A stretch of 57,904 bases of DNA, from positions 1 to 57,904 of the forward strand of contig CAYYLD010000003.1 of the NCBI GenBank assembly GCA_964472495.1. Reading direction: 5' to 3'. Both the position numbers and the translations under genes were made by a program. The notes below the pieces were generated by a model. The model was not told the DNA's origin and searched no databases. It was given only the letters and a program-made list of their open reading frames with translations. Of the stretch, positions 1-42,881 are shown piece by piece. Within the stretch, counting starts at the first letter, position 1. The number at the start of each line of letters is the position of its first letter. This DNA comes from an uncultured Candidatus Saccharibacteria bacterium (lineage in GTDB: Bacteria > Patescibacteriota > Minisyncoccia > Portnoybacterales > UBA2143).

Positions 1-73
1 GCGCCCGTAGCTCAATGGATAGAGCGCCACGCTTCGGACGTGGAAGTTGCGTGTTCGAATCATGCCGGGCGCG
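1..73 (+). tRNA. tRNA-Arg (anticodon TCG)
   Basis: Cloverleaf: acceptor GCGCCCG/CGGGCGC, anticodon arm CCACG-CTTCGGA-CGTGG, T-loop TTCGAAT; no encoded CCA. Confidence 0.93.
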
Positions 74-77
74 CCCG

Positions 78-151
78 GCGCCGTTAGCTCAGCCAGGTAG
101 AGCAGTTGGCTCTTAACCAATTGGTCGGGGGTTCGATTCCCTCACGGCGCA
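78..151 (+). tRNA. tRNA-Lys (anticodon CTT)
   Basis: Acceptor GCGCCGT/ACGGCGC, anticodon arm GTTGG-CTCTTAA-CCAAT, T-loop TTCGATT. Confidence 0.93.
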
Positions 152-898: not shown

Positions 899-3082
899 AT
901 GAAAAAGATAAAGATTTTTGTTGGCGTGTTTCTGGTCGTAGCCCTTATCTTCATAGGGGTACCTACCTTTGCGGGGACAACCGATGGCCAGATTGAATTT
1001 GGTGACCAGGTTGTCAGTCCGGATTACAAGGCCGGCCAGGTGTTGGTTAAATACCGGGCTCCAGTTCGGGCCGCGGCGACCAGATATTTTCGTGAAGAAT
1101 ATGCTATTAATACCATTAAGACCCTTAAAAGTGGAATCCAATTGGTCAAGCTACCTCCTGAACTAAGCGTGGAAGAGGCCCTGGTAGTTTATGACAGGAG
1201 TCCAAATGTAGTCTATGCCGAGCCGAATTATCGTTATTTTGCAGAGGTCATCCCTAATGATCCTGGTTTTCCCAAGTTATGGGGACTGCATAACACTGGC
1301 CAGAAAGTAAACGGGACGACTGGCGCGGCCGATGCCGATATGGACCTTCCTGAGGCCTGGGGTATATGTTCTCAATGTACTGGCAGTCAGACAGTCATCG
1401 GCGCTGTTTTAGATACGGGGATTGATTATAACCATCCTGATTTATCAGGGAATATCTGGATTAACCCGGGAGAAATACCTGGCAATGGCCTTGATGATGA
1501 TAATAACGGATATATTGACGATGTTCGGGGGTGGGATTTTGTTGACACTGATAATGACTCCATGGATTACATGGGGCACGGTACTCACGTGGCCGGCACA
1601 GCGGCCGCAGAAGGAAATAATGCTTATGGTTTAAGCGGAGTTTGCTGGAAGGCCAAAATTATTCCTCTTAGAGTATTGGATGCTAGTGGCAGCGGATATA
1701 CTTCGGATATTATTGAAGCGGTTGAATACGCTAATGCTCTTCAGGTTCAGCTGACAGCTATGAATATGAGTTTTGGCGGCGGTGGCTTTAGTCAGTTTCT
1801 TAAAGAGGCCATTGAGGCCTCTTCGGCGGTAGTGGTGTGCTCAGCTGGAAATTCTGCTGATGACAATGACACTATTCCTCATTACCCGTCCAGTTATAAT
1901 TGCCCTAATATCATAGCTGTGGCCGCTACAGACCAAGACGATGAGCTGGCTGCATTCTCAGATTACGGAACGGTCAGCGTGGACCTGGCTGGACCAGGAG
2001 TGAATATTTACAGCGCTATTCCGTCGAGAGCTGTCATCTGGAGTGACGATTTTGATGATGGGAATATGTCCGGCTGGACCACAGGCGGCACTAACAATAC
2101 CTGGGGAATTACTAGTAGCGAATTTTACAGCCCTGCCTATTCGCTTACAGACAGTCCGGTTGGGAATTATCAGAACAATACTAATTCCTGGGCCAGAATT
2201 GGTCCCCTTGACTTTTCTACAGATACTGGTATAAAAGTTAGATTTCAGATCAAGGGAATATGCGAGTATCATTGGGATAAATTGTACATTGAGGCCTCTG
2301 ATGATTTGTTAAATTGGTCTGGAGTATGGCTCACCGGTTCGTCCGCTGGAATGTGGCTTCATATAGATGTAGACTCTACAGATTTTGACGGTGAGTCCGC
2401 CGTCTATTTCAGATTCCGCTTGTCCACTAATTCCTCTATTACCGAAGATGGCTTCTACATTGATGATGTGGCGCTCACCGCCCATTCAGACATTTTTGAT
2501 GGCGATGAATACGCTTTCAATAGCGGTACGTCAATGGCGACCCCACACTTGTTGGGTCTTTGCTTACTGACTCGAGCGTTTGATCCAGATTTAAGCAACC
2601 TGGAGATAAAGGAAGCCATAGAAGGTAATGTGGATGTTATACCGTCTTTAGCCGGCAAGGTGGCTACTAACGGAAGAGCCAATGCTTTTAAGACTATTCT
2701 TTCTTTAGTGAAGGCGCCTATTGCAACTACGGGTGACGCTACTTCAGTGACTGCCAACTCGGCTGTTCTTAATGGTACGGTCAACCCCAATAACAGCAAA
2801 GTGGAGGCCGCTTATTACTTTGAATATGGTCTGACTACCGGTTATAGTTCAAGTACAGCTGAAGCAGAGATTGGCTCAGGGACGAATGGAGTGGCAGTCA
2901 GCGCTAATCTTGCCGGACTGAATCCAGGGACGACCTATCATTTCCGACTGGTCGCCAGAAATGACAAAGGAGCAAGCTATGGTCATGACCAAAGCTTGAC
3001 CACTCTGCCTTCTTCGGTTGGAGGCGGAGGCGGAGGCGGAGGCGGAGGCGGATGCTTTATTAACACGGCATCTGACAGATAA
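899..3082 (+). CDS. Secreted S8 (subtilisin-family) serine protease with prodomain, inserted beta-rich domain, FN3-like domain and poly-Gly/GCFI tail
   Basis: Catalytic motifs VLDTG, HGTHVAG, SAGN and GTSMATPH; signal peptide; start moved to ATG 899 behind an AAAGGAG Shine-Dalgarno. Confidence 0.92.
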   Translation: MKKIKIFVGVFLVVALIFIGVPTFAGTTDGQIEFGDQVVSPDYKAGQVLVKYRAPVRAAATRYFREEYAINTIKTLKSGIQLVKLPPELSVEEALVVYDRSPNVVYAEPNYRYFAEVIPNDPGFPKLWGLHNTGQKVNGTTGAADADMDLPEAWGICSQCTGSQTVIGAVLDTGIDYNHPDLSGNIWINPGEIPGNGLDDDNNGYIDDVRGWDFVDTDNDSMDYMGHGTHVAGTAAAEGNNAYGLSGVCWKAKIIPLRVLDASGSGYTSDIIEAVEYANALQVQLTAMNMSFGGGGFSQFLKEAIEASSAVVVCSAGNSADDNDTIPHYPSSYNCPNIIAVAATDQDDELAAFSDYGTVSVDLAGPGVNIYSAIPSRAVIWSDDFDDGNMSGWTTGGTNNTWGITSSEFYSPAYSLTDSPVGNYQNNTNSWARIGPLDFSTDTGIKVRFQIKGICEYHWDKLYIEASDDLLNWSGVWLTGSSAGMWLHIDVDSTDFDGESAVYFRFRLSTNSSITEDGFYIDDVALTAHSDIFDGDEYAFNSGTSMATPHLLGLCLLTRAFDPDLSNLEIKEAIEGNVDVIPSLAGKVATNGRANAFKTILSLVKAPIATTGDATSVTANSAVLNGTVNPNNSKVEAAYYFEYGLTTGYSSSTAEAEIGSGTNGVAVSANLAGLNPGTTYHFRLVARNDKGASYGHDQSLTTLPSSVGGGGGGGGGGGCFINTASDR

Positions 3083-3184
3083 ATGAGTTGCTTTGGTGGC
3101 TTTGCTTTTTCTGCGGTGGGCTTAATTGGCTTAAAGTCAGGATTTACCTGCCCGATGTTGCTTCTTCAAAAAATGTGAGGAAGG

Positions 3185-3218
3185 ACCGCCCGGTCAAAAT
3201 TAACTGGACGGTTTTTTT
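3185..3218 (+). terminator. Intrinsic terminator after the protease
   Basis: Imperfect stem ACCGCCCGG/CTGGACGGT plus T7. Confidence 0.55.
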
Positions 3219-3297
3219 CTTTTTCTTTTTTCTGTTTTCTGTGATTTTTGTTTTCCCCAGTTGCCTTTTTTTATTTTTCTTGTTAGAATAAATTTAA

Positions 3298-3324
3298 AGA
3301 TTCTTCACTTCGTTCAGAATGACA
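3298..3324. repeat. Half of a REP-like element (AGATTCTTCACTTCGTTCAGAATGACA)
   Basis: Resembles, from recall, the GATTCTTCGCTTCGCTCAGAATGAC arm of a widespread REP-like repeat; partner arm not visible. Confidence 0.4.
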
Positions 3325-3329
3325 ATAAT

Positions 3330-3596
3330 ATGCTAAACCCAACTAAAAAATCCAAGGTGATTAAAGAGTATAAAACCCACGATAAAGATACTGGCTCGGC
3401 CGAAGTCCAGATTGCTATTTTCACCAAGCAGATTGAGGAATTAGCTAAACATCTTAAAAAACATCCCAAGGACAATCATTCCCGCCGGGGTCTTTTAAAA
3501 ATGGTTTCCAAACGAAAGCGGCTGTTGGATTATTTAAAGGAAGAAGACGAGAAGCGCTATAAGAAGATAGTTAAAAAATTGGGATTAAAAAAATGA
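3330..3596 (+). CDS. rpsO: 30S ribosomal protein S15
   Basis: [25 protein letters not shown]; start at ATG 3330. Confidence 0.97.
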
Positions 3597-4099
3597 GTAT
3601 TATCAAACATAAAGAACAACGGGTAGCCGTTTTGATTGACGCGCAAAACATGTATCATTCAGCCAAGAATCTTTACAGGGCCAGGGTGAATTTTAAAGAG
3701 ATTTTGAATACGGCTGTCTCCGGCCGAAAACTGGTTCGGGCCATTGCTTATGTCATTAAGACCGAAAGCGGCGAAGAAAAGAGTTTTTTTGAGGCGTTGA
3801 CCAAATCCAGCATTGAGACAAGAGTTAAAGACCTTCAAATATTTTACGGCGGTTTGAAAAAAGCTGACTGGGACGTTGGCCTGACCGTTGACGCGGTCAA
3901 GTTGTCTGCTCAATTGGATGCCATTGTTCTGGTAACCGGTGACGGAGATTTTTTGCCTTTGGTTGAATACCTGAAAGGACAGGGCCGCCAGGTAGAAGTA
4001 ATTGCTTTTTCTAAAAGCGCTTCGGCCAAGCTAACCGAAGCGGCTGACGATTTTATTGATTTAAGCGAAAATAAAGATAAGTATTTGTTGAAAAAATAA
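3593..4099 (+). CDS. NYN-domain (LabA/DUF88) PIN-like protein
   Basis: [14 protein letters not shown] and GDGDF motifs; ATGA overlap with rpsO stop region. Confidence 0.9.
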
Positions 4100-4107
4100 T
4101 TAATTAG

Positions 4108-4225
4108 GCGCTCTTTAGTTGGTTTTGGTCTCGTTTTTTTCGTTTAGGTTTTTATCCGAATTGTCAATTGATAATTTGGACAGAAACCTGCACGAAAGCC
4201 GATATCAATATTGGCTGGAGGGCGC
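4108..4225 (+). promoter_or_regulatory. Long irregular RNA hairpin in the pnp 5' leader
   Basis: Nested complementarity with many G-U pairs (GCGCTCTTTAGTTGGT/ATTGGCTGGAGGGCGC; TTTCGT/ACGAAA; AGGTTT/AAACCT; TCCGAATT/AATTTGGA); the stem includes the GGAGG SD. Confidence 0.65.
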
Positions 4226-4233
4226 TCGAACTT

Positions 4234-6342
4234 ATGAGTTCCAAACAATTTAAGATTGATTGGGCCGGCCGGGAATTAAAGGTAGAAATCGGCCATTTGG
4301 CTCAACAGGCCAATGGGGCGGTTTTACTTTCTTACGGCCAGACAACCGTTTTGGCCACGGCGGTCATGGACGAGAAGCCCCGCCAGGTTGATTATCTGCC
4401 TCTAACGGTTGATTACGAGGAAAAACTTTACGCGGCTGGCAAGATTAAAAGCGGCCGTTTTCTCAAAAGAGAAGGCCGGGCTTCCGACGAGGCCGTTTTG
4501 ACCGGCCGAATGGTTGACCGGGTTATCCGACCTAACTTTAATCAGAAAATTAGAAACGACCTTCAGGTTATTTTGACGGTTCTTTCATTTGATAAAGAGA
4601 ACGACCCGGATGTTCCGGCTTTGTTGGCCGCTTCTTTGGCTTTGGGCGTTTCTAATATCCCCTGGGACGGGCCGATAGCCGGTCTGCGGATAGGTCGGAC
4701 TACTGAGAATAAAGAAGAATGGCTTTTAAATCCGACTTATCAAGGCCGGGAGAAAAGCGATTTTGATTTGGTTATTGCCGGCAAAAAAGATAAGATTAAC
4801 ATGTTGGAAGGAGGGGCTAATCAGCTGCCCGAAGAAGTTTTGCTGTCAGCTATTGAATTTGCTCAGCCGCATCTTAAAGAAATTATTCAGTGGCAGAAAA
4901 AAATCATTGAAGGGGTTAATCCGGCCAAAGCCGTTTTAGCGACGGCCGAAGCGCCGGCTGAATTAGTTAAAAAAGTTAAGGAGAAAATAGGCGATCGCTT
5001 GGAAAAAGCTCTTTATCAGCCGGGCAAGTCAGAACGATTGGAAGGACTGGGCGTTATCAAAAAAGAGTTAATTGAAGGTTTGGCTCCGGAATCAGAGGAG
5101 GAAACCAATCAAATTGAAGAAATTTTTGAGGAAGAAATTAACCGGATTGTCCATCAGAATATTTTGAAAGCCGCTTCTGGTCAGGAGAAAAGACCTGATG
5201 GCCGTAAGTTAGACGAAGTCCGCTCAATTAAAACACAGGTTGGTCTTTTGGCTCGGACCCACGGCTCAGGTTTATTTGAACGAGGCGAGACCCAAGCTCT
5301 TTCGATAGTCACCTTAGGAGCGCCCGGCGATGAACAGACTATTGAAGGTATGGAAGTTGAGGAGAAAAAGGGTTTTTTCCACCATTACAATTTCCCGCCT
5401 TATTGCACTGGCGAGACCGGCCGCTTAGGCGGCCCGGGCCGTCGGGAAATCGGTCACGGTGCTTTGGCTGAGAGAGCCCTCTTGTCTTTGATTCCTTCCA
5501 AGGAAGAATTCCCCTATACTATTCGCTTGGTTTCAGAAATTCTTTCTTCCAATGGTTCTTCCTCAATGGCTTCGGTCAGCGGTTCTAGTTTAGCCCTGAT
5601 GGATGCCGGCGTGCCCATTAAAAACCACATCAGCGGTATCGCTATGGGCTTAATGATGGAATCGGTTGATAACTATCGTATCTTGACCGATATTCAGGGA
5701 CCGGAAGACCATCATGGCGATATGGACTGCAAGATTGCCGGAACTGAACTGGGGGTGACGGCTTGCCAAATGGATGTTAAAATAGAAGGAGTTACTTTAG
5801 AGATTCTTAAAAAAGTTTTTGCCCAGGCCAAAGAAGCCCGTTTGCACATTCTGAAGGAAATGACTAAGACGATTAGTCAGCCAAAAGAAGATCTTTCGCC
5901 TTTGGCGCCGCGCATCCTTACTCTTAGAATTAATCCGGAAAGAATTAGGGATGTTATCGGACCGGGCGGCAAAGTGATTAACGAAATAACCGGAGAGACC
6001 GGAGTTAAAATTGACATTGAAGACGATGGTTTGGTCAATATTACTTCAACTGACGAAGCGGCTGGTCAAAAAGCCCTGGAATGGGTTAAGAATTTGACTC
6101 GCGAAGTCAAAGTCGGTGAGATTTTTCAAGGCCGGGTGACTAAAATTACTGATTTTGGCGCTTTCGTTGAGATTCTGCCTGGTCAGGAAGGCCTGCTCCA
6201 TATCTCTGAACTGGCTCCTTACCGGGTTCGCCGGGTTGAAGACATCGTTAGAACCGGCCAAATGATTCCGGTCAAAGTAAAAAAGATTGATGAGCAGGGC
6301 CGGATTGGTCTATCAATGAATAAAATTAAAAAGGATAAATAA
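4234..6342 (+). CDS. pnp: Polyribonucleotide nucleotidyltransferase (PNPase)
   Basis: Two RNase PH domains (RREIGHGALAE, SNGSSSMAS, GDMDCK) plus KH and S1 domains; start at ATG 4234. Confidence 0.97.
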   Translation: MSSKQFKIDWAGRELKVEIGHLAQQANGAVLLSYGQTTVLATAVMDEKPRQVDYLPLTVDYEEKLYAAGKIKSGRFLKREGRASDEAVLTGRMVDRVIRPNFNQKIRNDLQVILTVLSFDKENDPDVPALLAASLALGVSNIPWDGPIAGLRIGRTTENKEEWLLNPTYQGREKSDFDLVIAGKKDKINMLEGGANQLPEEVLLSAIEFAQPHLKEIIQWQKKIIEGVNPAKAVLATAEAPAELVKKVKEKIGDRLEKALYQPGKSERLEGLGVIKKELIEGLAPESEEETNQIEEIFEEEINRIVHQNILKAASGQEKRPDGRKLDEVRSIKTQVGLLARTHGSGLFERGETQALSIVTLGAPGDEQTIEGMEVEEKKGFFHHYNFPPYCTGETGRLGGPGRREIGHGALAERALLSLIPSKEEFPYTIRLVSEILSSNGSSSMASVSGSSLALMDAGVPIKNHISGIAMGLMMESVDNYRILTDIQGPEDHHGDMDCKIAGTELGVTACQMDVKIEGVTLEILKKVFAQAKEARLHILKEMTKTISQPKEDLSPLAPRILTLRINPERIRDVIGPGGKVINEITGETGVKIDIEDDGLVNITSTDEAAGQKALEWVKNLTREVKVGEIFQGRVTKITDFGAFVEILPGQEGLLHISELAPYRVRRVEDIVRTGQMIPVKVKKIDEQGRIGLSMNKIKKDK

Positions 6343-14924: not shown

Positions 14925-15872
14925 ATGTTAAAAGAGCAGTGGGACCAGTTTGTTATTGAGAATAAGGGGTCCTTTTTACAATCCTGGACTTGGGGCGAGT
15001 TTCAAGAATCTCTGAACGGAAAAATCTGGCGTCTCGAGATAGAAAGATTAAAAGGATTGGTTGTTAAACGCGATTTGCCTTTAGGAAAGAGTTATTTGTA
15101 TTGTCCGCGCGGCCCGGTCGGCCAAGTAGCTGAAGATAATTTCCGGAAATTTTTAGCTCAAGTTAAAAGAATTAGCCAGACAGAAAAAAGTATTTTCTTT
15201 AAAATTGAACCGCCTGTCGGGGCGTCCCTTTTGACCATCCCGGGAACTACACCCTTGAGGAAGTCAGAGAACCAGATTCAGCCGGTTAAAACTCTGATTT
15301 CGGATATTTCTCAACCCGAGGAAGAGCTATTAGCTCAAATGCATCAGAAGACGAGATATAATATTAGATTGGCTCAGCGAAAAGGAGTTAAAATTGAAAT
15401 TTCTTCCGGAAATCATTCTCAAGAAGTAGAAAAATTCTTAGAATTGTCAGCGGCCACCGCCAAACGGGATAAATTCCATCTTCATTCTCAAACATACTAT
15501 CGGAAAATGCTGGAAGTTTTAGGTCAGGAGGGGATAATTAAGTTATTTTTAGCCAGATATCAAAACCGGATTATTGTGGCTAACCTGATTTGTTTTTTCG
15601 GCCAGACGGCTACTTATTTACACGGCGCTTCTGACCATAATTTCCGTCATTTAATGGCCCCTCATTTATGCCAATGGCAGGCCATTTTAGAAGCTAAAAG
15701 GCTTGGCTGTCAGTACTATGATTTCTGGGGCATTGATGAACAAAGATGGCCGGGGGTAACCCGTTTCAAAAAAGGATTTAATGGTCAAGAGGTTGATTAC
15801 CCGGGCAGTTTTGATTTATTTTTTCAGCCATTTTGGTATCGGCTTTATCATTTAGCTAAAAAAGTTCTTTAA
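14925..15872 (+). CDS. FemAB/FemX-family peptidoglycan bridge peptidyltransferase
   Basis: SFLQSWTWGEF, YCPRGP, KTRYNIRLA, YDFWG, GVTRFKKGF. Confidence 0.88.
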   Translation: MLKEQWDQFVIENKGSFLQSWTWGEFQESLNGKIWRLEIERLKGLVVKRDLPLGKSYLYCPRGPVGQVAEDNFRKFLAQVKRISQTEKSIFFKIEPPVGASLLTIPGTTPLRKSENQIQPVKTLISDISQPEEELLAQMHQKTRYNIRLAQRKGVKIEISSGNHSQEVEKFLELSAATAKRDKFHLHSQTYYRKMLEVLGQEGIIKLFLARYQNRIIVANLICFFGQTATYLHGASDHNFRHLMAPHLCQWQAILEAKRLGCQYYDFWGIDEQRWPGVTRFKKGFNGQEVDYPGSFDLFFQPFWYRLYHLAKKVL

Positions 15873-15987
15873 ATCTTTGACAAAGTGTTCTTTTTTGTGA
15901 TATATAAAATTTCAAAAGGGACGCCCTTTAAAGGGACGCCCTTGGAGGAAAAGAAAAAGAACTTTAAGATATTTTAAGGAGGAAATA

Positions 15988-16314
15988 ATGAATGAGAGAC
16001 TGGAAATGGCGGACGAGGAGGTGATAAGAGTTTTGAAAAAGTTTGGCACAGTTGAGAAAGAGCCCTTTCATACCTTCCGAGTCAGAATCCGGAATTTTTG
16101 GGGAAACTGGTTAAGGGGCCGGGGTAACCCCTCTATCTTAGTAGAACTTATAGATAACGGCATATCTTTTTCGCCAATCGTTTCCCTGTCTTTTGGATTG
16201 GGTTCTAAAATAAGAAAGGTGAGTTTTAGGCGAGCCGAGGCGAAGGCCGGAGAGATTAAGAGAGCTGTCCAGCAATTTCTAAGACAAAAGGAAGAAGAAT
16301 TGAAGGGAAAATAA
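15988..16314 (+). CDS. Hypothetical protein
   Basis: Strong AAGGAGG SD, upstream TTGACA and downstream terminator; no recognisable motif. Confidence 0.6.
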   Translation: MNERLEMADEEVIRVLKKFGTVEKEPFHTFRVRIRNFWGNWLRGRGNPSILVELIDNGISFSPIVSLSFGLGSKIRKVSFRRAEAKAGEIKRAVQQFLRQKEEELKGK

Positions 16315-16393: not shown

Positions 16394-17764
16394 ATGAAGA
16401 ACTTCCTGAGAAAACTTACACCTGATTTTTTGCTAAACTGGTATCATTTTGGCTGGGCTTTACTGGGAGCGATTGTTTATCGCTTTCCCTCAAAGCAGCT
16501 GAAAGTAATTGGCATAACCGGGACCAACGGTAAATCGACGGTTGTTTCTTTGATTAGTCAGATTTTAGAAGAAACTGGCTATCGAGTGGCTTCTCTTTCT
16601 TCGATTCAGTTTAAAATTAAAGATAAGATTTGGCCTAATACTTTAAAAATGACTATGCCCGGCCGTTTGAAGCTGCAGAAATTTCTGCGACAAGCCGTGC
16701 GGGCCGGCTGTCAATACGCTGTTTTGGAAGTGACTTCCGAAGGCATCAAACAGCACCGTCATCAATTTATTGATTTCGGAACAGCTCTTTTGACTAATTT
16801 AACGGCCGAACATTTAGAAAGTCATGGCGGTTTTGATAACTACCGAAGAGCCAAAGGAAAACTTTTTCAGAAAATTGGCCATCAGGGAAAAACAATTGTT
16901 AATCTAGATGACCCATCAGCCGATTATTTTCTCCAATTTAAAGCAGCCGAGAAATACGGCTATGTTATGAATCAAAAAGATGTAGTTGCCGGGGCGTTCC
17001 TTTTTGCTACACCTAAAGGGTCGCCCTTTCGGACACGTCCTTTGCTCCGCAAAGGGCGTGATCCTCAACGGCAACCCTTATTAGTCAAAAGAGACGCCCC
17101 GAGAATTATTCAAGCCAGAAATTGCCGGGTAAGCCGAAAAGGAATCGGCTTTTCAATCGAGGGAGTGGATTTTAATCTAAATCTTTTAGGCAGGTTTAAT
17201 ATCGCTAATGCTTTAGCCGCTATAACCATTGGATTAGCCGAGGAAATCCCTTTGGCTAAAATTAAATTGGCTCTAGAGAAAATCAAAGGCCTGCCCGGTC
17301 GCCTGGAAATAGTAATTAAAGAGCCATATACGGTTATCGTTGATTACGCCCATACGCCTGACGCTTTGGAGAAGGTTTATCAAACGATTAGAGAAGTTTT
17401 TCCGGGGCGGTTAATTGGTCTTTTGGGAGCGGCCGGCGGCGGTCGCGATAAGTGGAAACGGCCTCAATTAGGTCAAATTGCCGAAAAATATTTAGATAAG
17501 ATTGTTATTACCAATGAAGACCCTTATGACGAAGAACCTCGATCAATTATCGACCAGGTAGCCGCCGGTTTAGAACAAAAACAGGCCCAGAAAGTTCTTG
17601 ACCGGCGTCAGGCCATCAGACAAGCTCTCAAGATAGCCCGGGCCGGCGATATTGTTATCATTACGGGCAAAGGTTGTGAGCCGTGGATATGTGTGGCTAA
17701 TGGCAAAAAAATGCCCTGGGATGACCGGCAGGTAGTTAGGGAGGAATTTGGCAAGATACATTAA
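16394..17764 (+). CDS. murE: UDP-N-acetylmuramoyl-tripeptide synthetase (MurE-type Mur ligase) with an in-frame palindromic insert
   Basis: GITGTNGKST, LEVTSEG, TNLTAEHL, VDYAHTPD, GAAGGGRD, NEDPYDE, GKG. Confidence 0.9.
   Translation: MKNFLRKLTPDFLLNWYHFGWALLGAIVYRFPSKQLKVIGITGTNGKSTVVSLISQILEETGYRVASLSSIQFKIKDKIWPNTLKMTMPGRLKLQKFLRQAVRAGCQYAVLEVTSEGIKQHRHQFIDFGTALLTNLTAEHLESHGGFDNYRRAKGKLFQKIGHQGKTIVNLDDPSADYFLQFKAAEKYGYVMNQKDVVAGAFLFATPKGSPFRTRPLLRKGRDPQRQPLLVKRDAPRIIQARNCRVSRKGIGFSIEGVDFNLNLLGRFNIANALAAITIGLAEEIPLAKIKLALEKIKGLPGRLEIVIKEPYTVIVDYAHTPDALEKVYQTIREVFPGRLIGLLGAAGGGRDKWKRPQLGQIAEKYLDKIVITNEDPYDEEPRSIIDQVAAGLEQKQAQKVLDRRQAIRQALKIARAGDIVIITGKGCEPWICVANGKKMPWDDRQVVREEFGKIH
16990..17101. 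repeat. ~112-bp imperfect palindrome inserted in frame in murE
   Basis: Nested arms GGGGCG..TTTTG/CAAAA..CGCCCC, TAAAGGGTCGCC/GGCAACCCTTA and CACGTCCTTTGC-TCC-GCAAAGGGCGTG. Confidence 0.8.
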
Positions 17765-17912
17765 CGCTTGGTCGTATGCTTTTTAGCGACATAGAATTGC
17801 GAACGGGCATGGTTTCGGCCGCCTTAGGCGGGCGGAGAGCGAGCAATTATAAAGAGCGGAAATCCTCGCCGGGGATTTCCGCGTTCGCTAAAAGACATAC
17901 AACTAAGCGTTA
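17762..17912. mobile_element. MITE-like structured element with ~28-bp imperfect terminal inverted repeats
   Basis: TAACGCTTGGTCGTATGCTTTTTAGCGA versus TCGCTAAAAGACATACAACTAAGCGTTA; internal hairpins GCGGAAATCC/GGATTTCCGC and CCGCC-TTA-GGCGG; no ORF. Confidence 0.55.
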
Positions 17913-20685: not shown

Positions 20686-22242
20686 ATGAGAAAACTTTGG
20701 TTTTCTATTTTTATTATCTTAATTGGAGGAGTTTTTCTCTTCCTTTTTTTAAAAGGGACAGATGAAACCAGTCAAATAACTTCTATGTTAGACAAATCTC
20801 AAGAAAGATATGTTCGTCAACCAGCCGTGGCCGGTCAGTTTTATCCGTCGGACAAAGAAGAGCTGACAGAGGTCATTAACCGGTTCCTGGAACAAGTTGA
20901 ACTGCCGAGGACAACAGGACTAATAAGGGCCTTGGTTGTTCCGCACGCCGGATATGTCTTTTCCGGGCCGGTGGCCGCTTATGGTTTTAAGGCGATTCAG
21001 GGGCAAAAAGTTAAAACAGTTATTTTAATCGGGCCAAGTCATCATCAGTATTTAAATGGAGCGATTATTGATGGAAATGACGTCTGGCAGACGCCCTTGG
21101 GTCAGGTGGATGTGGATACTGATTTAAGAGACATTTTAGTTAAAGAGAGTTCTTTATTTAAAATAGATTCATTGCCTCATCAGCCGGAGCATTGTTTAGA
21201 AGTGGAGATGCCTTTTTTACAAAACGTCTTAGAGGATTTCAAAATTTTGCCGGTTTTAGTTGGTCAACTGACTGATGATGATTTGGAAAAGATCAGTCAA
21301 ACTTTGGCCGGACACATTGATGACAAAACTCTATTAGTTGCTAGTTCGGATATGTCCCACTATCCAACTTATGAGCAGGCTAATTATGCGGATAAAAAAG
21401 TGATTGAGGCGGTCTTGACCGGTCAGGTTTCTAAATTACGGGAGATTATTGACCAATTGACCGGGGAAAATATTGCCAATTTAGATACTTGTTTATGCGG
21501 TCGGGAGGCGGTGGAAATACTGATGACTATTGTTCAAGGAAAAGAAGCGGCTGAGATCAAACTTTTGAAATATGCCAATTCCGGCGACGTATCTGTTGGT
21601 GATAAATCGCAGGTAGTTGGTTACTCATCCATCAGTTTTAGCTGGTCCGGAGAATCAAAGCCGTCTTCAGAAATAACTCTGAATCAGGGGCAAAAAGATA
21701 AGCTTTTAGAGATTGCCAAGACCTCTGTGGAAAAATATATTTTAGAAAGCCAAATACCTCAATTTGAAATTAACGATTCGCTTTTAAACGAACCTCTGGG
21801 TGCTTTTGTCACTTTGAAAAGAGATGGTCAGTTAAAGGGCTGTCTTGGCCGATTTTCCTCCGAAGGCGAATCCGCCTCTGGCGGAGAATCTAATATTCCT
21901 TTATACCAGGTAATTTCTCAAATGGCCGCGGCCGCGGCTACCCAGGATGCTCGTTTTAAACCAATTCAAGCCAGTGAATTAAATGATTTAGAATACGAGA
22001 TTTCTGTTTTAAGTCCCTTGAAGAAGATAGACGACTGGCATCAGATAGAATTAGGTAAACATGGTGTCCAAATCAGGCAGGGACTTCGTTCAGGAGTTTT
22101 CTTGCCGCAAGTAGCCACGGAAAACAATTGGGATTTAGATACTTTTATGGGTCAGCTTTGTTCCCAAAAAGCCGGTCTTACCTGGGATTGCTGGAAGAGC
22201 AGCCAAGTCGATATTTACATTTTCACCGCTCAGGTCTTTTAA
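20686..22242 (+). CDS. Fused MEMO1 (AmmeMemoRadiSam B) + AMMECR1 (AmmeMemoRadiSam A) protein with N-terminal TM
   Basis: RQPAVAGQFYP, PHAGY, EHCLEV, SSDMSHY; then GAFVTL, LKGCLG, EISVLSP, GVFLPQV. Confidence 0.88.
   Translation: MRKLWFSIFIILIGGVFLFLFLKGTDETSQITSMLDKSQERYVRQPAVAGQFYPSDKEELTEVINRFLEQVELPRTTGLIRALVVPHAGYVFSGPVAAYGFKAIQGQKVKTVILIGPSHHQYLNGAIIDGNDVWQTPLGQVDVDTDLRDILVKESSLFKIDSLPHQPEHCLEVEMPFLQNVLEDFKILPVLVGQLTDDDLEKISQTLAGHIDDKTLLVASSDMSHYPTYEQANYADKKVIEAVLTGQVSKLREIIDQLTGENIANLDTCLCGREAVEILMTIVQGKEAAEIKLLKYANSGDVSVGDKSQVVGYSSISFSWSGESKPSSEITLNQGQKDKLLEIAKTSVEKYILESQIPQFEINDSLLNEPLGAFVTLKRDGQLKGCLGRFSSEGESASGGESNIPLYQVISQMAAAAATQDARFKPIQASELNDLEYEISVLSPLKKIDDWHQIELGKHGVQIRQGLRSGVFLPQVATENNWDLDTFMGQLCSQKAGLTWDCWKSSQVDIYIFTAQVF
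21856..21885. repeat. 30-nt double-hairpin repeat (family A) in frame in the AMMECR1 domain
   Basis: TCCTCCGAAGGCGAATCCGCCTCTGGCGGA encodes SSEGESASGG. Confidence 0.8.
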
Positions 22243-30660: not shown

Positions 30661-31896
30661 ATGAAAAGATTATTTGTTTTTCTGTTGGTATTATTTGGTT
30701 TTTGTTTCTTGGAAATCGGGATAATTAATGCTGTGAGTACTCCAGGCACTCTGAGGTGGACATTTCAAACTAAGGGTTGTGTGCAATCCTCTCCAGCCAT
30801 AGACTCCGACGGCACAATCTATATCGGCTCGAATGACCACAATGTCTACGCCGTCAATCCTGATGGAACGCTCAAGTGGGAATTTGTTACGGGTGGTCTA
30901 ATACATTCCTCTCCAGCCATAGACTCCGACGGCACAATCTATATCGGCTCGAATGACCACAATGTCTACGCCGTCAATCCTGATGGAACGCTCAAGTGGG
31001 AATTTGTTACGGGTGGTGGAATAGATTCTTCGCCAGCCATAGGCCTTGATGGCACTATCTATGTTGGTTCATATGACCACAATGTCTATGCCATCAATCC
31101 AGATGGTACTAAAAAATGGGAATTTTGGGCCGGTTATAAGGTTTCATCGTCTCCAGCAGTAAGATTTGACGGCATGGTCTATATTGGTTCCGATTGCGAC
31201 AGGCTTTTTGCTATCAACCAGGATGGAATTTGTGTGTGGAATTTTATAGGATTAGACATTCGCTCCTCTCCGGCTATAGATTCTGATAATACGGTCTATA
31301 TTAGCTCGGCTGATGATAAGATCTATGCTTTCAACCCTGACGGGACGCTCAAATGGGAGTTTGCTACTGGAAGTGGCTGGGACCTTGAGTGGGCAATATC
31401 CTCTCCGGTCATTGGAACAGATAATACAGTTTATGTTGGCTCGTATGATGGAAATGTCTATGCCATCAACCCTGACGGAACGCTCAAATGGGAGTTTCTC
31501 ACTGGAGCTAAGGTACGTTCTTCGCCGGCCATAGGCCTTGATGGCACGATCTATGTCGGCTCACGTGATGACAAGGTATACGCCATCAACCCTGACGGCA
31601 CTCTCAAATGGGACTTTACGGCTATAGCAGTCTATTCCTCGCCAGCTATTGGAGCTGACGGTACTATCTATATGGGAGCGGATGATGGGAAGTTATACGC
31701 GATATACGGAGATTCAGGAGGATTAGCAGATTCGCCTTGGCCTATGTTTGGTCATGATTTGAGACATACCAGTAGCGGCGGAAATAATCAGGCTCCAATT
31801 GACAATGGAGGAAATGGTGATAATGGACATCTTACCACCTCAAGCGACTTGGATAATGATGGCGGATGTTTCGTTTCTATAGTAGCCTTACCATAA
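30661..31896 (+). CDS. Secreted PQQ-like (BamB-type repeat) beta-propeller protein with GGCF tail
   Basis: About eight SSPAI.xDGTIYxGSxDxxVYAINPDGTLKWxF repeats; signal peptide; start at ATG 30661. Confidence 0.88.
   Translation: MKRLFVFLLVLFGFCFLEIGIINAVSTPGTLRWTFQTKGCVQSSPAIDSDGTIYIGSNDHNVYAVNPDGTLKWEFVTGGLIHSSPAIDSDGTIYIGSNDHNVYAVNPDGTLKWEFVTGGGIDSSPAIGLDGTIYVGSYDHNVYAINPDGTKKWEFWAGYKVSSSPAVRFDGMVYIGSDCDRLFAINQDGICVWNFIGLDIRSSPAIDSDNTVYISSADDKIYAFNPDGTLKWEFATGSGWDLEWAISSPVIGTDNTVYVGSYDGNVYAINPDGTLKWEFLTGAKVRSSPAIGLDGTIYVGSRDDKVYAINPDGTLKWDFTAIAVYSSPAIGADGTIYMGADDGKLYAIYGDSGGLADSPWPMFGHDLRHTSSGGNNQAPIDNGGNGDNGHLTTSSDLDNDGGCFVSIVALP
30787..31017 (+). repeat. Exact 111-bp tandem duplication with 120-bp period
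   Basis: 30787..30897 is identical to 30907..31017. Confidence 0.92.
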
Positions 31897-38306: not shown

Positions 38307-38470
38307 GAGTTACCCTAACCATTTCTCGAAGACGCCGCCGCCGTGACACCATTGTTTTCTATTTATTATTTAAGCGGCTGCTCTGAGATGACAAAAGAGT
38401 TCCTTATACCCATTCCTTCTTAGTTATTATCTTTTGTCATCTAAGCTTCTTGAAATGGTTAGGGTAACTC
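38307..38470. other. 164-bp structured element bounded by perfect 19-bp inverted repeats
   Basis: GAGTTACCCTAACCATTTC/GAAATGGTTAGGGTAACTC; inner perfect 13-bp AGATGACAAAAGA/TCTTTTGTCATCT. Confidence 0.75.
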
Positions 38471-39925: not shown

Positions 39926-40441
39926 ATGGCTTTATTAGACAGATTAAAGAAGAAAATCAAAAAAGAGGAACCTGCCAAGGGTGGACCTGTCTCCGGCGGG
40001 AAAGAAAAGAAAGAGAAAGTTGAGAAATCTGCCAGAGGCAGACCCGCTTTTGGCGAGAAAGAAAAACCTCAATTAAAAGAAGAATCTTTAGTCAGTCCGA
40101 AAGAAGCCGAAAAAGCAAAGCCCGAGAAAATTATTGCCAAACAAGTTCCTCAAGCCTATCGATTAATTAAAGAACCGCAGATTACCGAAAAGGCGACTTT
40201 TTTGAGTGACCAAAACAAGTATGTTTTTAAAATTTCTTCCCGGGCTAATAAGACGGAAATCAGGAAGACGATTGAGGCGCTTTACGGCGTCAAAGTAGTT
40301 AAGGTTCATTTAATTCATGCGGCGGCCAAGAGAAGACGGTTAGGACGCAGTCAGGGCTGGCGCGGTGGCTTAAAAAAGGGCTTTAAGAAAGCAGTGGTCA
40401 CTTTAGCTCAGGGAGAAAAAATAGAATTATTGCCGAGATAA
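39926..40441 (+). CDS. rplW: 50S ribosomal protein L23 with long N-terminal extension
   Basis: [26 protein letters not shown]. Confidence 0.95.
39971..40000. repeat. Family A repeat in rplW (copy 1)
   Basis: CCTGCCAAGGGTGGACCTGTCTCCGGCGGG encodes [10 protein letters not shown]. Confidence 0.75.
40028..40057. repeat. Family A repeat in rplW (copy 2)
   Basis: TCTGCCAGAGGCAGACCCGCTTTTGGCGAG encodes [10 protein letters not shown]. Confidence 0.75.
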
Positions 40442-42191: not shown

Positions 42192-42881
42192 ATGGGACAA
42201 AAAGTTCATCCACTATCTTTACGTATCGGCTTAGGGACTGATTGGAAGTCTCATTGGTTTGGTAAAAAAAGAAAGTACCGGGAATTTTTAGAGCAAGATG
42301 TCAAATTGCGGAGTTTTATTATTAAAAAATTAGATAAAGCTGGATTTAATTCAGTCAAAATAGAACGGTCAGCTAACTCAATTAATATTATCGTTCAGGC
42401 GGCTCGACCCGGTCTGGTTATTGGCCGCGGCGGTAGCGGGGTCGAGGAATTGAAGGGTGAAATTAAAAAATTCCTTCAAAGAATCGATCCGGCCTTAGCT
42501 TCTGCCAGAGGCGGATTCGCCTCTGGCGAAAAGTTGGAGATTCGTTTAGAAATCGAAGAAATTAAGCAGGCCAATTCCCAGGCAGCTGTCGTGGCGGCTG
42601 ATATGGCTAGCCAAATAGAAAAACGTTTGCCTTATCGACGGGTAATCAAACAGGCCTTGAGTAAGATAACCCAGAACAAAGGAGTTCAAGGGGCTAAGAT
42701 AATGGTTAAAGGCAGATTAAACGGAGCGGAAATAGCACGTAAGGAATGGCTTAAAAAAGGAAGAATTCCTTTACAGACTTTGCGTTCTGATATTGATTAT
42801 GCCCAGGCAACCGCTTATACTACTTACGGCACCATCGGGATTAAAGTTTGGATTTATAGAGGAGAGGTTTTTAATCAATAA
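42192..42881 (+). CDS. rpsC: 30S ribosomal protein S3
   Basis: MGQKVHP, RPGLVIGRGG, GRLNGAEIAR, PLQTLR. Confidence 0.97.
   Translation: MGQKVHPLSLRIGLGTDWKSHWFGKKRKYREFLEQDVKLRSFIIKKLDKAGFNSVKIERSANSINIIVQAARPGLVIGRGGSGVEELKGEIKKFLQRIDPALASARGGFASGEKLEIRLEIEEIKQANSQAAVVAADMASQIEKRLPYRRVIKQALSKITQNKGVQGAKIMVKGRLNGAEIARKEWLKKGRIPLQTLRSDIDYAQATAYTTYGTIGIKVWIYRGEVFNQ
42501..42530. repeat. Family A repeat in rpsC
   Basis: TCTGCCAGAGGCGGATTCGCCTCTGGCGAA encodes SARGGFASGE. Confidence 0.85.

What the first reader, a model, noticed from the sequence alone, without database searches (positions are those of the whole stretch)
16990..17101. ~112-bp long hairpin inserted in frame within murE (RPE-like)
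Seen: three nested inverted-repeat pairs span the whole segment, with core CACGTCCTTTGC-TCC-GCAAAGGGCGTG. It translates as about 37 atypical Pro/Arg-rich residues (AGAFLFATPKGSPFRTRPLLRKGRDPQRQPLLVKRDAP) in the central ATP-binding domain, without breaking the frame. Established: this resembles in size and behaviour the Rickettsia RPEs. Inference: a second, larger coding-tolerant element family (family C).
Basis: partly seen in the sequence, partly recalled or inferred. Interest (0 to 1): 0.75.

Follow-up and report, generated by a model that had tools for sequence, protein, structure and literature searches.

The report
Palindromic repeat element inserted in-frame in murE
A roughly 120-base hairpin-forming repeat, one copy of a small family of such repeats in this Patescibacteria (CPR) genome, sits in frame inside the essential cell-wall gene murE and adds about 35 to 40 disordered residues to a variable surface loop; this kind of selfish DNA is already known from Rickettsia and REP/REPIN elements, but I found no description of it in this bacterial group.

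Summary
Window 16982-17101 folds into one long imperfect hairpin (dG -65.4 kcal/mol, z = -8.9). It lies in frame in murE. Of 120 orthologs, only this lineage has it.

The nearest relative (L001) lacks exactly 105 nt (35 codons). The allele is identical in at least five independent assemblies. AlphaFold2 models MurE confidently everywhere except residues 195-232, which is the insert.

It proved correct just outside it. In the same genome, 1.5-3.3 kb left of the window, and in a strain 85-89% identical, I found three more loci:
- Each copy abuts the stop codon of the gene upstream.
- All copies share a 5' AAGGGT|GTAGTT tag.
- The three long copies keep the hairpin through five compensatory pair changes.
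- Independent assemblies repeatedly break inside these copies.
- Eroded in-frame remnants sit in the neighbouring femAB-like gene.

The murE/L001 indel is asymmetric. It keeps GTAGTT on one side and the last 9 nt of the right arm on the other, like published REPIN excision footprints.

Best reading: a lineage-specific REP/REPIN-like palindromic repeat, tolerated in a dispensable MurE loop. It behaves like an RPE but is not homologous to one. The mobilising enzyme was not found. This is a new member of a known kind and of moderate interest.

The parts
16394..17764 (+). murE-like gene (UDP-MurNAc-tripeptide synthetase, 456 aa) that hosts the element
   Evidence: ORF. Pfam Mur_ligase_M (E 1.5e-40) and Mur_ligase_C (E 3.2e-29). 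7930 homologs. dN/dS of 0.10 against L001 with the insert removed.
16982..17101 (+). Full repeat unit as defined by the family: GTAGTT tag, long imperfect palindrome, closing ...GACGCCCCG
   Evidence: nhmmer profile of the copies hits 16974-17102 at E 1.4e-37. Hairpin z = -8.9.
16988..17092 (+). The 105 nt (codons 199-233) present here and absent from the closest ortholog (L001); the junction is ambiguous by 1 nt (G)
   Evidence: blastn and MAFFT against L001. In 120 orthologs the loop between conserved residues 185 and 262 has a modal length of 43 aa; here it is 78 aa, the longest by 20 aa.
16982..16987 (+). GTAGTT tag at the 5' end of the unit; also present in the L001 allele
   Evidence: AAGGGT|GTAGTT(C/G)CC precedes the palindrome at all four loci.
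16990..17009 (+). Left outer arm, CGGGGCGTTCCTTTTTGCTA
   Evidence: It matches GGGGCGTCCCTTTTT of the other copies.
17082..17101 (+). Right outer arm, TAGTCAAAAGAGACGCCCCG; its last 9 nt (GACGCCCCG) are also present in L001 as GATGCCCCG
17034..17060 (+). Apical stem-loop, CACGTCCTTTGC-TCC-GCAAAGGGCGTG; three adjacent pairs differ from the other copies by compensatory double changes
   Evidence: pair I4.
15217..15256 (-). Eroded remnant of the same repeat inside the femAB-like gene, in frame (left arm plus tag: CGGGGCGTCCCTTTTGAC-CAT-CCCGGGAACTACACCCTT on the + strand)
   Evidence: L001 lacks 12 nt immediately next to it. L208 carries an 18-aa cluster of the 13-nt unit at the same place.
15914..15943 (+). 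Two tandem 15-nt units, AAAGGGACGCCCTT(T), in the femAB-murE spacer; this is the short motif that builds the arms of the element
   Evidence: The 11-mer AAGGGACGCCC (up to 1 mismatch) occurs 6 times in the window, all between 15220 and 17099, against 0.23 expected.

Best explanation
Window 16982-17101 is one copy of a lineage-specific family of non-coding palindromic repeats, each about 120-135 nt, in a Patescibacteria genome.

**Architecture.** Each unit has a GTAGTT tag and two inverted arms, GGGGCGTCCCTTTTT.../...AAAAAGGGACGCCCC. Between the arms is an inner region that is itself palindromic, so a single strand folds into one long hairpin. Architecture and behaviour match REP doublets (REPINs) and REP clusters.

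**Position in MurE.** This copy lies inside murE in a multiple of three bases, in the one frame without stops. It falls in the most length-variable surface excursion of the central Mur-ligase domain. It is therefore translated as about 35-40 extra disordered residues that leave the fold intact, and it persists as tolerated selfish or neutral DNA.

**What is shown:**
- the hairpin;
- the presence/absence difference from the closest relative, with all more distant orthologs lacking the segment;
- the family, with conserved pairing;
- the placement in a disordered loop;
- purifying selection on the host gene.

**What is inferred:**
- Copies spread, or are lost, as single-stranded hairpins handled by a trans-acting enzyme of the HUH tyrosine-transposase (RAYT) type. 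Replication slippage across the hairpin is the alternative route.
- The L001 allele is either the product of such an asymmetric excision or deletion, or a pre-insertion site that pairs with the 5' tail of the element.
- The intergenic copies, each abutting a stop codon in sense orientation, act as 3' mRNA hairpins, as REPs do.
For: **Hairpin.** z = -8.9.

**Insertion relative to orthologs.** 105 nt are absent from L001, whose flanks are 89-94% identical. This is the only one of 120 orthologs with a 78-aa loop; the modal length is 43 aa.

**Not an artefact.** The sequence is identical in L002-L005, which come from four further JGI samples. A second 456-aa allele also carries it.

**Family.**
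- L127 overlaps the window at 100% identity over 10,748 nt, so it is the same genome.
- L127 carries a long copy at 1-124 (80-81% identity to the murE copy; blastn E 2e-25, nhmmer E 5e-38) and a short allele at 1650-1727.
- L213, a strain 85-89% identical, carries a long copy at 3239-3376 (E 2.8e-30) and the start of another at 4390-4424.

**Structure is conserved.** Across the three long copies there are 46 predicted pairs, 5 of them with compensatory double changes. Between the murE copy and copy 2, none of 42 predicted pairs is broken.

**Sign of multiple copies.** Five independent assemblies end inside the copy that follows the rubrerythrin-like gene. Two Logan contigs end inside the copy next to the CCA-enzyme gene.

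**Shared tag.** AAGGGT|GTAGTT is present at all four loci.

**Asymmetric indel.** L001 retains GTAGTT and GATGCCCCG. The first bases of the missing segment (CCGGGGCGT) are complementary to the retained ACGCCCCG(G). Bertels and Rainey describe the same pattern for REPIN excision (PMC3116915).

**The hairpins are prone to deletion.** The short allele at the CCA-enzyme locus lacks about 52 apical nt between TTRAGG micro-repeats.

**Tolerance in MurE.**
- AlphaFold2 gives mean pLDDT 85.9, with only residues 195-232 below 50.
- Region 182-258 does not align with any solved MurE.
- 16 of the 120 orthologs have only 16 aa between the flanking conserved residues 185 and 262, about 27 fewer than the mode.
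- dN/dS is 0.10.

**Survivorship.** Compared with intergenic copy 2, the murE copy has +5 nt and +1 nt indels and a TAA-to-TCA change. Together these remove the stops that copy 2 has in that frame.
Against: - **No transposase.** No Y1/HUH (RAYT) or other transposase was found in about 63 kb of this genome. That covers ten unassigned ORFs scanned and the precomputed Pfam lists. The rest of the genome could not be reached.
- **Copy number unknown.** Only four loci are known, so the genome-wide count is open. The public-collection scans were uninformative.
- **No duplication or terminator.** No target-site duplication is visible, and no T-run follows the intergenic copies.
- **Polarity unresolved.** The murE/L001 difference could be an insertion in this lineage or a deletion in L001. 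L001 keeps 15-21 nt that match the ends of the element, yet its loop has the normal length.
- **Thin covariation evidence.** Compensatory changes among three copies are few. They could reflect subfamily ancestry rather than selection acting in place.
- **Expression untested.** Translation of the insert is inferred, not observed.
Confidence: 0.72

Rival explanations
1. The hairpin is a selected RNA element inside the murE mRNA. It could be, for example, an RNase III or other processing site, a translational pause, or a stability element that tunes expression of murE or the downstream genes. The peptide would then be a by-product.
For: - The hairpin is very stable (-65.4 kcal/mol).
- Pairing is preserved among copies, including G-U pairs on the sense strand.
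- The other copies lie in sense orientation directly after stop codons, where REP-type hairpins are thought to act on mRNA (PMC3733652).
- The murE copy has its own set of compensatory changes in the apical stem.
Against: - The closest relative and all 119 other orthologs do without it.
- The minus strand folds just as well, so the symmetry is at the DNA level.
- Nothing in Rfam matches it.
- A family of dispersed copies explains the structure without any local function.
Confidence: 0.1
2. The insert has been co-opted as a functional protein loop. A basic, proline-rich tail on MurE could, for example, mediate an interaction.
For: - The frame is kept open by indels and a TAA-to-TCA change relative to an intergenic copy.
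- The allele is fixed in all sampled contigs of this population.
Against: - The segment is predicted to be disordered, with pLDDT below 50.
- No related peptide turned up among 1.84 billion representative proteins.
- An open frame is required for any insertion to survive in an essential gene, so it is not evidence of function.
- No sequence variation is available to test for selection on the peptide.
Confidence: 0.07
3. The hairpin is a one-off local product, made by template switching or snap-back synthesis from nearby sequence, and not a copy of a repeat.
For: - The last 14 nt of the insert are an exact inverted copy of murE 16785-16798.
- The outer arms resemble a 21-nt stretch of femAB 1.8 kb upstream.
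- The left arm pairs with sequence already present at the site in L001.
Against: - The 14-mer match is at chance level for the window (blastn E 0.03-0.08; about 0.06 expected).
- Full-length copies at 80-85% identity exist at unrelated loci.
- The femAB stretch is itself a remnant of the family.
Confidence: 0.03
4. The segment is removed before the mature protein is made, by RNA excision, ribosomal bypass or protein splicing.
For: None directly. The idea comes only from the size and structure of the segment.
Against: - The frame is open and in phase, so no removal is needed.
- There is no intron or other RNA family match.
- 35 residues with no intein-like features are too few for an intein; this rests on established knowledge of intein size.
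Confidence: 0.03
5. The segment is an assembly artefact.
For: Palindromes can be created by mis-assembly.
Against: - The 105 nt are identical in contigs from five different samples.
- It lies within a 45-kb and a 58-kb contig.
- It preserves the reading frame of an essential gene under purifying selection.
Confidence: 0.01

Closest known systems
[quoted passage not shown] 2013, PMC3733652)
   Same: - The unit is about 100-130 nt, with two conserved inverted ends around a less conserved spacer, and folds into one long hairpin.
- Compensatory changes occur in the stem.
- There is a GTAG tetranucleotide at the end, followed by two unpaired bases, as in the GTAG-1 and GTAG-2 REP families.
- Most copies are extragenic and lie close behind stop codons.
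- Copies are inherited vertically across related strains.
- The presence/absence indel is asymmetric. It leaves the last bases of the right arm, and the 5' end of the missing piece is complementary to them.
- REP dimers and clusters inside genes that encode 20-82 extra residues have been reported.
   Different: - No RAYT gene has been found so far.
- The copy number is unknown and looks low: four loci in about 63 kb plus relatives.
- The arms are built from a very short unit, AAGGGACGCCCTT, not a classical 20-40-nt REP stem-loop.
- The host is a Patescibacteria genome, a group absent from the phyla surveyed in those papers.
- This copy lies in the middle of an essential gene.
Rickettsia palindromic elements (RPE; Ogata et al. 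2000 and 2002, as summarised in PMC10969869)
   Same: - Palindromic repeats of about 100-150 bp inserted in frame in unrelated housekeeping genes.
- They encode an extra peptide at a position compatible with the protein fold.
- Intergenic copies also exist.
   Different: - No sequence relationship: the encoded peptide has no relative in an exhaustive search.
- Only one full intragenic copy, plus remnants, is known here, whereas nearly half of RPE copies are intragenic.
- The GTAG tag and asymmetric indel seen here are not features that define RPE-1.
Bacterial MITEs (Correia/NEMIS, ERIC, BOX, RUP and others; review PMC10969869)
   Same: - Short non-autonomous repeats with inverted ends.
- They can fold in RNA and sometimes fuse in frame with host ORFs.
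   Different: - No target-site duplication is visible.
- No parent insertion sequence with matching ends is known.

Membership tests
REPIN / REP-doublet elements | Two inverted conserved end sequences separated by a spacer, the whole folding into a hairpin | tested here: met
   The arms are GGGGCGTCCCTTTTT / AAAAAGGGACGCCCC. Hairpin z-scores range from -6.2 to -8.9.
REPIN / REP-doublet elements | A multi-copy family within one genome, with ends more conserved than the spacer and compensatory changes in the stem | tested here: inconclusive
   Four loci are known across two strains. The outer arms are nearly identical, while the apical stem differs through compensatory changes (5 of 46 pairs). 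Contigs break inside copies in at least five assemblies. The genome-wide copy number could not be measured.
REPIN / REP-doublet elements | A cognate RAYT (HUH/Y1 transposase, Pfam Y1_Tnp) gene in the genome, usually flanked by the repeats | not testable with these tools
   None was found among the ten unassigned ORFs scanned, nor in the precomputed Pfam lists for the about 63 kb reachable.
REPIN / REP-doublet elements | Asymmetric excision footprint that leaves the last bases of the right end | tested here: met
   L001 lacks 105 nt but keeps GTAGTT and GATGCCCCG. The 5' bases of the missing piece are complementary to the retained end. The criterion comes from PMC3116915. Whether the event was an excision or an insertion is unresolved.
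REPIN / REP-doublet elements | Extragenic location | tested here: not met
   This copy is intragenic. The other three loci are extragenic and abut stop codons.
GTAG-tagged REP superfamily (Di Nocera 2013) | GTAG tetranucleotide at one end of the palindromic unit | tested here: met
   GTAGTT immediately precedes the left arm at all four loci and in the femAB remnant.
GTAG-tagged REP superfamily (Di Nocera 2013) | A 20-40-bp unit with a 6-13-bp stem and a short loop next to the tag | tested here: inconclusive
   The basic unit here is AAGGG-ACG-CCCTT, with a 5-6-bp stem. The long hairpin is built from several such units in alternating orientation, and no single classical REP stem-loop sits next to the tag.
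Rickettsia palindromic elements (RPE) | In-frame insertion of a 100-150-bp palindromic repeat in a housekeeping gene, at a site compatible with the fold | tested here: met
Rickettsia palindromic elements (RPE) | Sequence membership in one of the RPE families (a conserved encoded peptide) | tested here: not met
   Exhaustive phmmer with the 39-aa peptide against 1.84 billion representative proteins gave one low-complexity hit (E 5.6e-4), a tandem-repeat ORF, and no Rickettsia-like peptide. Caveat: only cluster representatives were searched.
MITE (transposase-dependent, cut-and-paste type) | Terminal inverted repeats flanked by a target-site duplication | tested here: not met
   Inverted ends are present, but the flanks (...AAAGAT|GTAGTT and CCCCG|AGAATT) are not direct repeats. 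The junction ambiguity against L001 is only 1 nt.

The most novel reading that the evidence does not exclude
The pair of murE alleles (window versus L001) may be a natural snapshot of REPIN-type single-strand transposition inside an essential coding sequence. On that reading, an asymmetric hairpin intermediate whose 5' tail pairs with the retained 3' end is cut out of, or pasted into, the site by a still unidentified HUH-type enzyme. The family would then be the first REPIN-RAYT-like system in the reduced genomes of Patescibacteria. It would also act as a generator of in-frame loop variation in their proteins, as seen in murE here and in femAB in three genomes.
Probability: 0.25. Interest if true: 0.65.

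Novelty: new member of a known kind. Interest (0 to 1): 0.45.

Why it matters
Patescibacteria have very small, gene-dense genomes, and repeat families are not among their recognised features. In the paper library I searched I found no description of REP, REPIN, MITE or RPE-like elements in this group.

This case shows several things:
- Such a family exists there and is inherited across strains.
- It changes length between close relatives.
- It can lodge in frame in essential cell-wall genes without destroying them.

That matters for annotation, because unexplained basic or proline-rich loops in CPR proteins, and contig breaks in their MAGs, may have this cause. It also adds an independent example of proteins acquiring new surface loops from selfish DNA. 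If a cognate enzyme is found, the asymmetric murE/L001 indel gives a concrete, testable footprint for the mechanism.

Tried and rejected
**Searches that led nowhere**
- Self-comparison of the window (blastn; nhmmer) found no second full copy inside the 57.9 kb. The family only appeared once flanking DNA of the same genome had been fetched (then).
- A six-frame concatenated peptide query to the word-indexed protein search returned nothing. It did not even recover MurE itself, although local phmmer gives E 5e-14 for that pair. The negative is therefore uninformative.
- The exhaustive peptide search gave one hit, a tandem-repeat ORF of low complexity, which I rejected.
- The genome-contig scan with the 20-nt apical core gave two hits, in Thermodesulfobacteriota and delta-proteobacterial MAGs. 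Neither shows similarity beyond 20-22 nt, so both are chance matches. The species itself was not retrieved.
None extends beyond about 30 nt, and the known murE loci were not reached.
- Two viral-contig scans gave chance matches only.
- Rfam gave no match, at either the gathering threshold or E up to 5.

**Ideas considered and dropped**
- Template-switch origin. It was suggested by a 14-nt inverted match to murE 16785-16798 and a 21-nt match to femAB. I rejected it once full-length copies were found elsewhere.
- PARCEL repeats (PMC2996958). Rejected, because those are tandem 25-residue coding repeats.
- CGTC-tagged REPs. Rejected, because their tag, stem and CCA-tail layout is not present here.

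**Incomplete lines**
- Search for a RAYT among ten unassigned ORFs found none.
- Walking left past the rubrerythrin-side copy failed. Every contig that carries that gene ends inside the repeat.
Full report
**1. The observation**

The segment is as described. The repeat finder reports three nested inverted-repeat pairs:
- 16983-17009 with 17082-17108;
- 17016-17033 with 17062-17079;
- the core 17034-17045 with 17049-17060.

Folded as RNA, 16980-17110 forms one continuous imperfect hairpin of -65.4 kcal/mol. Two hundred dinucleotide shuffles give -34.0 +/- 3.5, so z = -8.9 and none folds as well. The opposite strand folds equally well, so the symmetry is a property of the DNA. In a sliding 120-nt scan of the whole window it is the second strongest structure.

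It lies in ORF 16394..17764 (+), 456 aa, which carries the Mur ligase middle and C-terminal domains. It is read through without a stop. Only that one of the six frames is fully open. Local G+C rises to 0.53 against about 0.41 for the gene.

**2. It is an insertion relative to orthologs, and it is real**

- Among 120 homologs, the stretch between conserved residues 185 and 262 has a modal length of 43 aa. Here it is 78 aa, and the next longest is 58 aa.
- The closest ortholog (P0002, locus L001) has flanks 89-94% identical at the DNA level and lacks exactly 105 nt, or 35 codons: window 16988-17092, movable by one G.
- The same 105 nt are identical in contigs from four further samples (L002-L005). 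A second allele of the protein, differing at one distant residue, also has it.
- With the insert removed, dN/dS between the window and L001 genes is 0.10 at dS 0.42. The gene is therefore under purifying selection in both lineages.

**3. Where it sits in the protein**

- An AlphaFold2 model built on the 120-sequence alignment is confident overall (mean pLDDT 85.9, pTM 0.85). The single exception is residues 195-232, which fall below 50 and have no secondary structure. They lie between strand 186-191 and the beta-hairpins at 237-262.
- Solved MurE structures align with residues 22-181 and 259-453 but not with the stretch between them.
- In sixteen of the 120 orthologs this stretch is only 16 aa long, about 27 residues fewer than the modal 43.

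The element has therefore landed in the most dispensable part of the central domain.

**4. It belongs to a repeat family**

*Finding the copies.* The window has no second copy, and my scans of public collections failed for technical reasons (see section 8). The family surfaced when I fetched DNA flanking the window from other assemblies. L127 overlaps the window at 100% identity over 10,748 nt, so it is the same genome, and it extends 3.3 kb further left. It contains two copies:
- a long copy at 1-124, 80-81% identical to the murE copy over 117-125 nt (blastn E 2e-25; nhmmer E 5e-38), cut by the contig end;
- a short version at about 1650-1727 with a perfect 20-bp stem.

A strain 85-89% identical (L213) has a long copy at the second locus (3239-3376, E 2.8e-30) and the beginning of a copy at the first. 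The short allele equals the long one minus about 52 apical nt, lost between TTRAGG micro-repeats.

*Position and tag.* Both intergenic loci begin at the stop codon of the gene upstream, in sense orientation: TAA|AAGGGYGTAGTT after a rubrerythrin-like gene, and TAAGGGTGTAGTT after the CCA-adding enzyme gene. All loci, including murE and a remnant in femAB, share AAGGGT|GTAGTT(C/G)CC in front of the left arm GGGGCGTCCCTTTTT. A more distant strain without the element after the rubrerythrin-like gene (L214) still reads TAAAAGGGT at that point. AAGGGT may therefore be flank or target rather than part of the element.

*Conserved pairing.* The three long copies share 46 predicted pairs, five of them with compensatory double changes. 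Between the murE copy and copy 2, none of 42 predicted pairs is broken. The substitutions that separate them are of three kinds: compensatory (three adjacent apical pairs, TTG/CAA against CGC/GCG), wobble-preserving, or located in loops.

*Contig breaks.* Five independent assemblies end inside the copy after the rubrerythrin-like gene, and two Logan contigs end inside the other copy. That is what a multi-copy repeat does to short-read assembly.

*Distribution.* Relatives at about 71-75% MurE identity (L206, L207, and L208 apart from its femAB gene) have no full copy.

**5. A short building block and in-frame remnants**

- The arms are built from a 13-15-nt unit, AAGGG-ACG-CCCTT.
- The 11-mer AAGGGACGCCC, allowing one mismatch, occurs six times in the window against 0.23 expected. 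All six lie between 15220 and 17099.
- Two tandem units sit in the femAB-murE spacer (15914-15943).
- The femAB-like gene carries, in frame, a left arm plus tag (15217-15256, minus orientation). L001 lacks 12 nt directly next to it.
- L208 has, at the same place, an 18-residue insertion made of several such units in both orientations.

The family therefore has a history of in-frame residence and erosion in at least two cell-wall genes.

**6. The indel is asymmetric**

L001 reads ...AAAAGGGTGTAGTT|GATGCCCCGAAAATT... It keeps the tag and the last nine bases of the right arm. The first bases of the missing piece (CCGGGGCGT) are complementary to that retained end.

Bertels and Rainey described the same asymmetry for REPIN excision in Pseudomonas. 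In their data the deletion starts at the left conserved end and stops short of the right end, leaving about 6 bp. The excised hairpin has a 5' tail complementary to the retained 3' end, and they proposed that this tail guides re-integration (PMC3116915).

The direction of the event here is unresolved. The more distant orthologs (L206, L208) have neither GTAGTT nor GAYGCCCCG at the site. That suggests the ancestor of the window and L001 lineages already carried element sequence, and that L001 lost the interior. Against this, L001's loop has the normal length. The short allele at the CCA-enzyme locus shows that internal deletions of these hairpins do occur.

**7. How it most likely works**

*Shown:*
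- It is a palindromic repeat of a lineage-specific family.
- It lies in frame within a disordered, dispensable loop of an essential enzyme that is under purifying selection.

*Inferred:*
- It is translated and tolerated. Compared with intergenic copy 2, the murE copy differs by +5 nt, +1 nt and a TAA-to-TCA change, which together clear the stops in the frame that is read. That is the pattern expected if only open, in-phase variants survive in an essential gene.
- Spread and loss occur through single-stranded hairpin intermediates. A RAYT-like HUH transposase is the obvious candidate, given the GTAG tag and the asymmetric footprint. None was found in the about 63 kb I could reach (Pfam lists), so slippage across the hairpin remains an alternative.
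- The intergenic copies probably act as 3' mRNA hairpins, as proposed for REPs (PMC3733652). No T-run follows them, so they are not classical intrinsic terminators.

**8. Comparison with known elements, and what failed**

*Known elements.* In behaviour this is what Ogata and colleagues described for Rickettsia RPEs (summarised in PMC10969869). It also matches what Di Nocera and colleagues catalogued as intragenic REP dimers and clusters encoding 20-82 residues. In architecture it is closest to REPINs and GTAG-tagged REPs.
- It is not a sequence relative of the RPEs: the peptide has no homolog among 1.84 billion representative proteins.
- It lacks the target-site duplication of classical MITEs.
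- Membership of the REPIN-RAYT system cannot be claimed without the transposase and a copy census.

*Searches that failed.*
- The word-indexed peptide search missed even the query's own protein.
- The genome-collection scan found only two chance hairpins.
- The viral scans gave noise.
- Rfam has nothing.

**9. Verdict**

It is a new member of a known kind of element, in a bacterial group where the literature I searched does not describe such repeats. Interest is moderate. It would rise if the asymmetric indel and a cognate enzyme turned out to define an active REPIN-like system in these reduced genomes.

Noticed in passing
window 17762-17912: A 151-nt hairpin (28-nt outer arms, 86% complementary; dG -71.6, z = -7.4) fills the spacer right after the murE stop. 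It is conserved at the same position in a more distant relative: 83% identity over 139 nt in L206/L207, where MurE is only 71% identical. In the closest relative, L001, different sequence takes its place. It has no Rfam match. It may be a conserved structured RNA or another hairpin element.
   Followed up: partly
window 4111-4223: A 113-nt near-perfect hairpin lies in the spacer upstream of the PNPase gene. It is the most structured segment of the window (z = -5.3 in the scan). It has many G-U pairs on the + strand, which suggests an RNA-level structure. It is identical in L127, and no other copy was found.
   Followed up: partly
window 38307-38470: A 164-nt hairpin (25-nt arms, 92% complementary, with an inner 16-nt pair) sits between the S10 gene and the start of the L3 ribosomal-protein operon (dG -62, z = -7.3). 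No other copy occurs in the loci fetched.
   Followed up: partly
window 21855-21903, 42500-42548, 55305-55353; related 39974-40003, 47301-47330, 40031-40060: Short G+C-rich palindromes of the type GCCAGAGGCGGATYCGCCTCTGGCGG recur inside protein-coding genes, among them ribosomal protein genes, the DNA polymerase III alpha gene and the Memo/AMMECR1 gene. They may be a separate, smaller family of repeats that tolerate coding positions.
   Followed up: no
L208 3340-3435 (femAB-like gene of a related genome): An 18-residue in-frame insertion is made of several AAGGGACGCCCTT units in both orientations. It lies at the same position as the remnant in the window's femAB-like gene.
   Followed up: partly
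L127 about 3000-3600 (just left of window position 1) and window 1-151: GC skew changes sign and gene orientation switches from minus to plus next to a pair of tRNA genes. This could mark a replication origin, or it could simply reflect coding-strand bias. All repeat copies have their GTAG tag on the sense strand of the adjacent gene.
   Followed up: partly
window 30787-31626: Repeats with a 120-nt period lie inside a 422-aa gene. They correspond to the blades of a PQQ/BamB-like beta-propeller, which is an ordinary protein repeat.
   Followed up: yes
window 16394-17764: This MurE and its relatives (modal length about 421-435 aa) match only the middle and C-terminal Mur-ligase Pfam domains. There is no hit to the N-terminal domain, and the alignment to solved MurE structures starts near residue 22.
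   Followed up: no
window 15988-16314: A 108-aa ORF with no Pfam match lies between femAB and murE. In L001 the same stretch was called as two short ORFs (40 and 34 aa), so it may not be a real gene.
   Followed up: no
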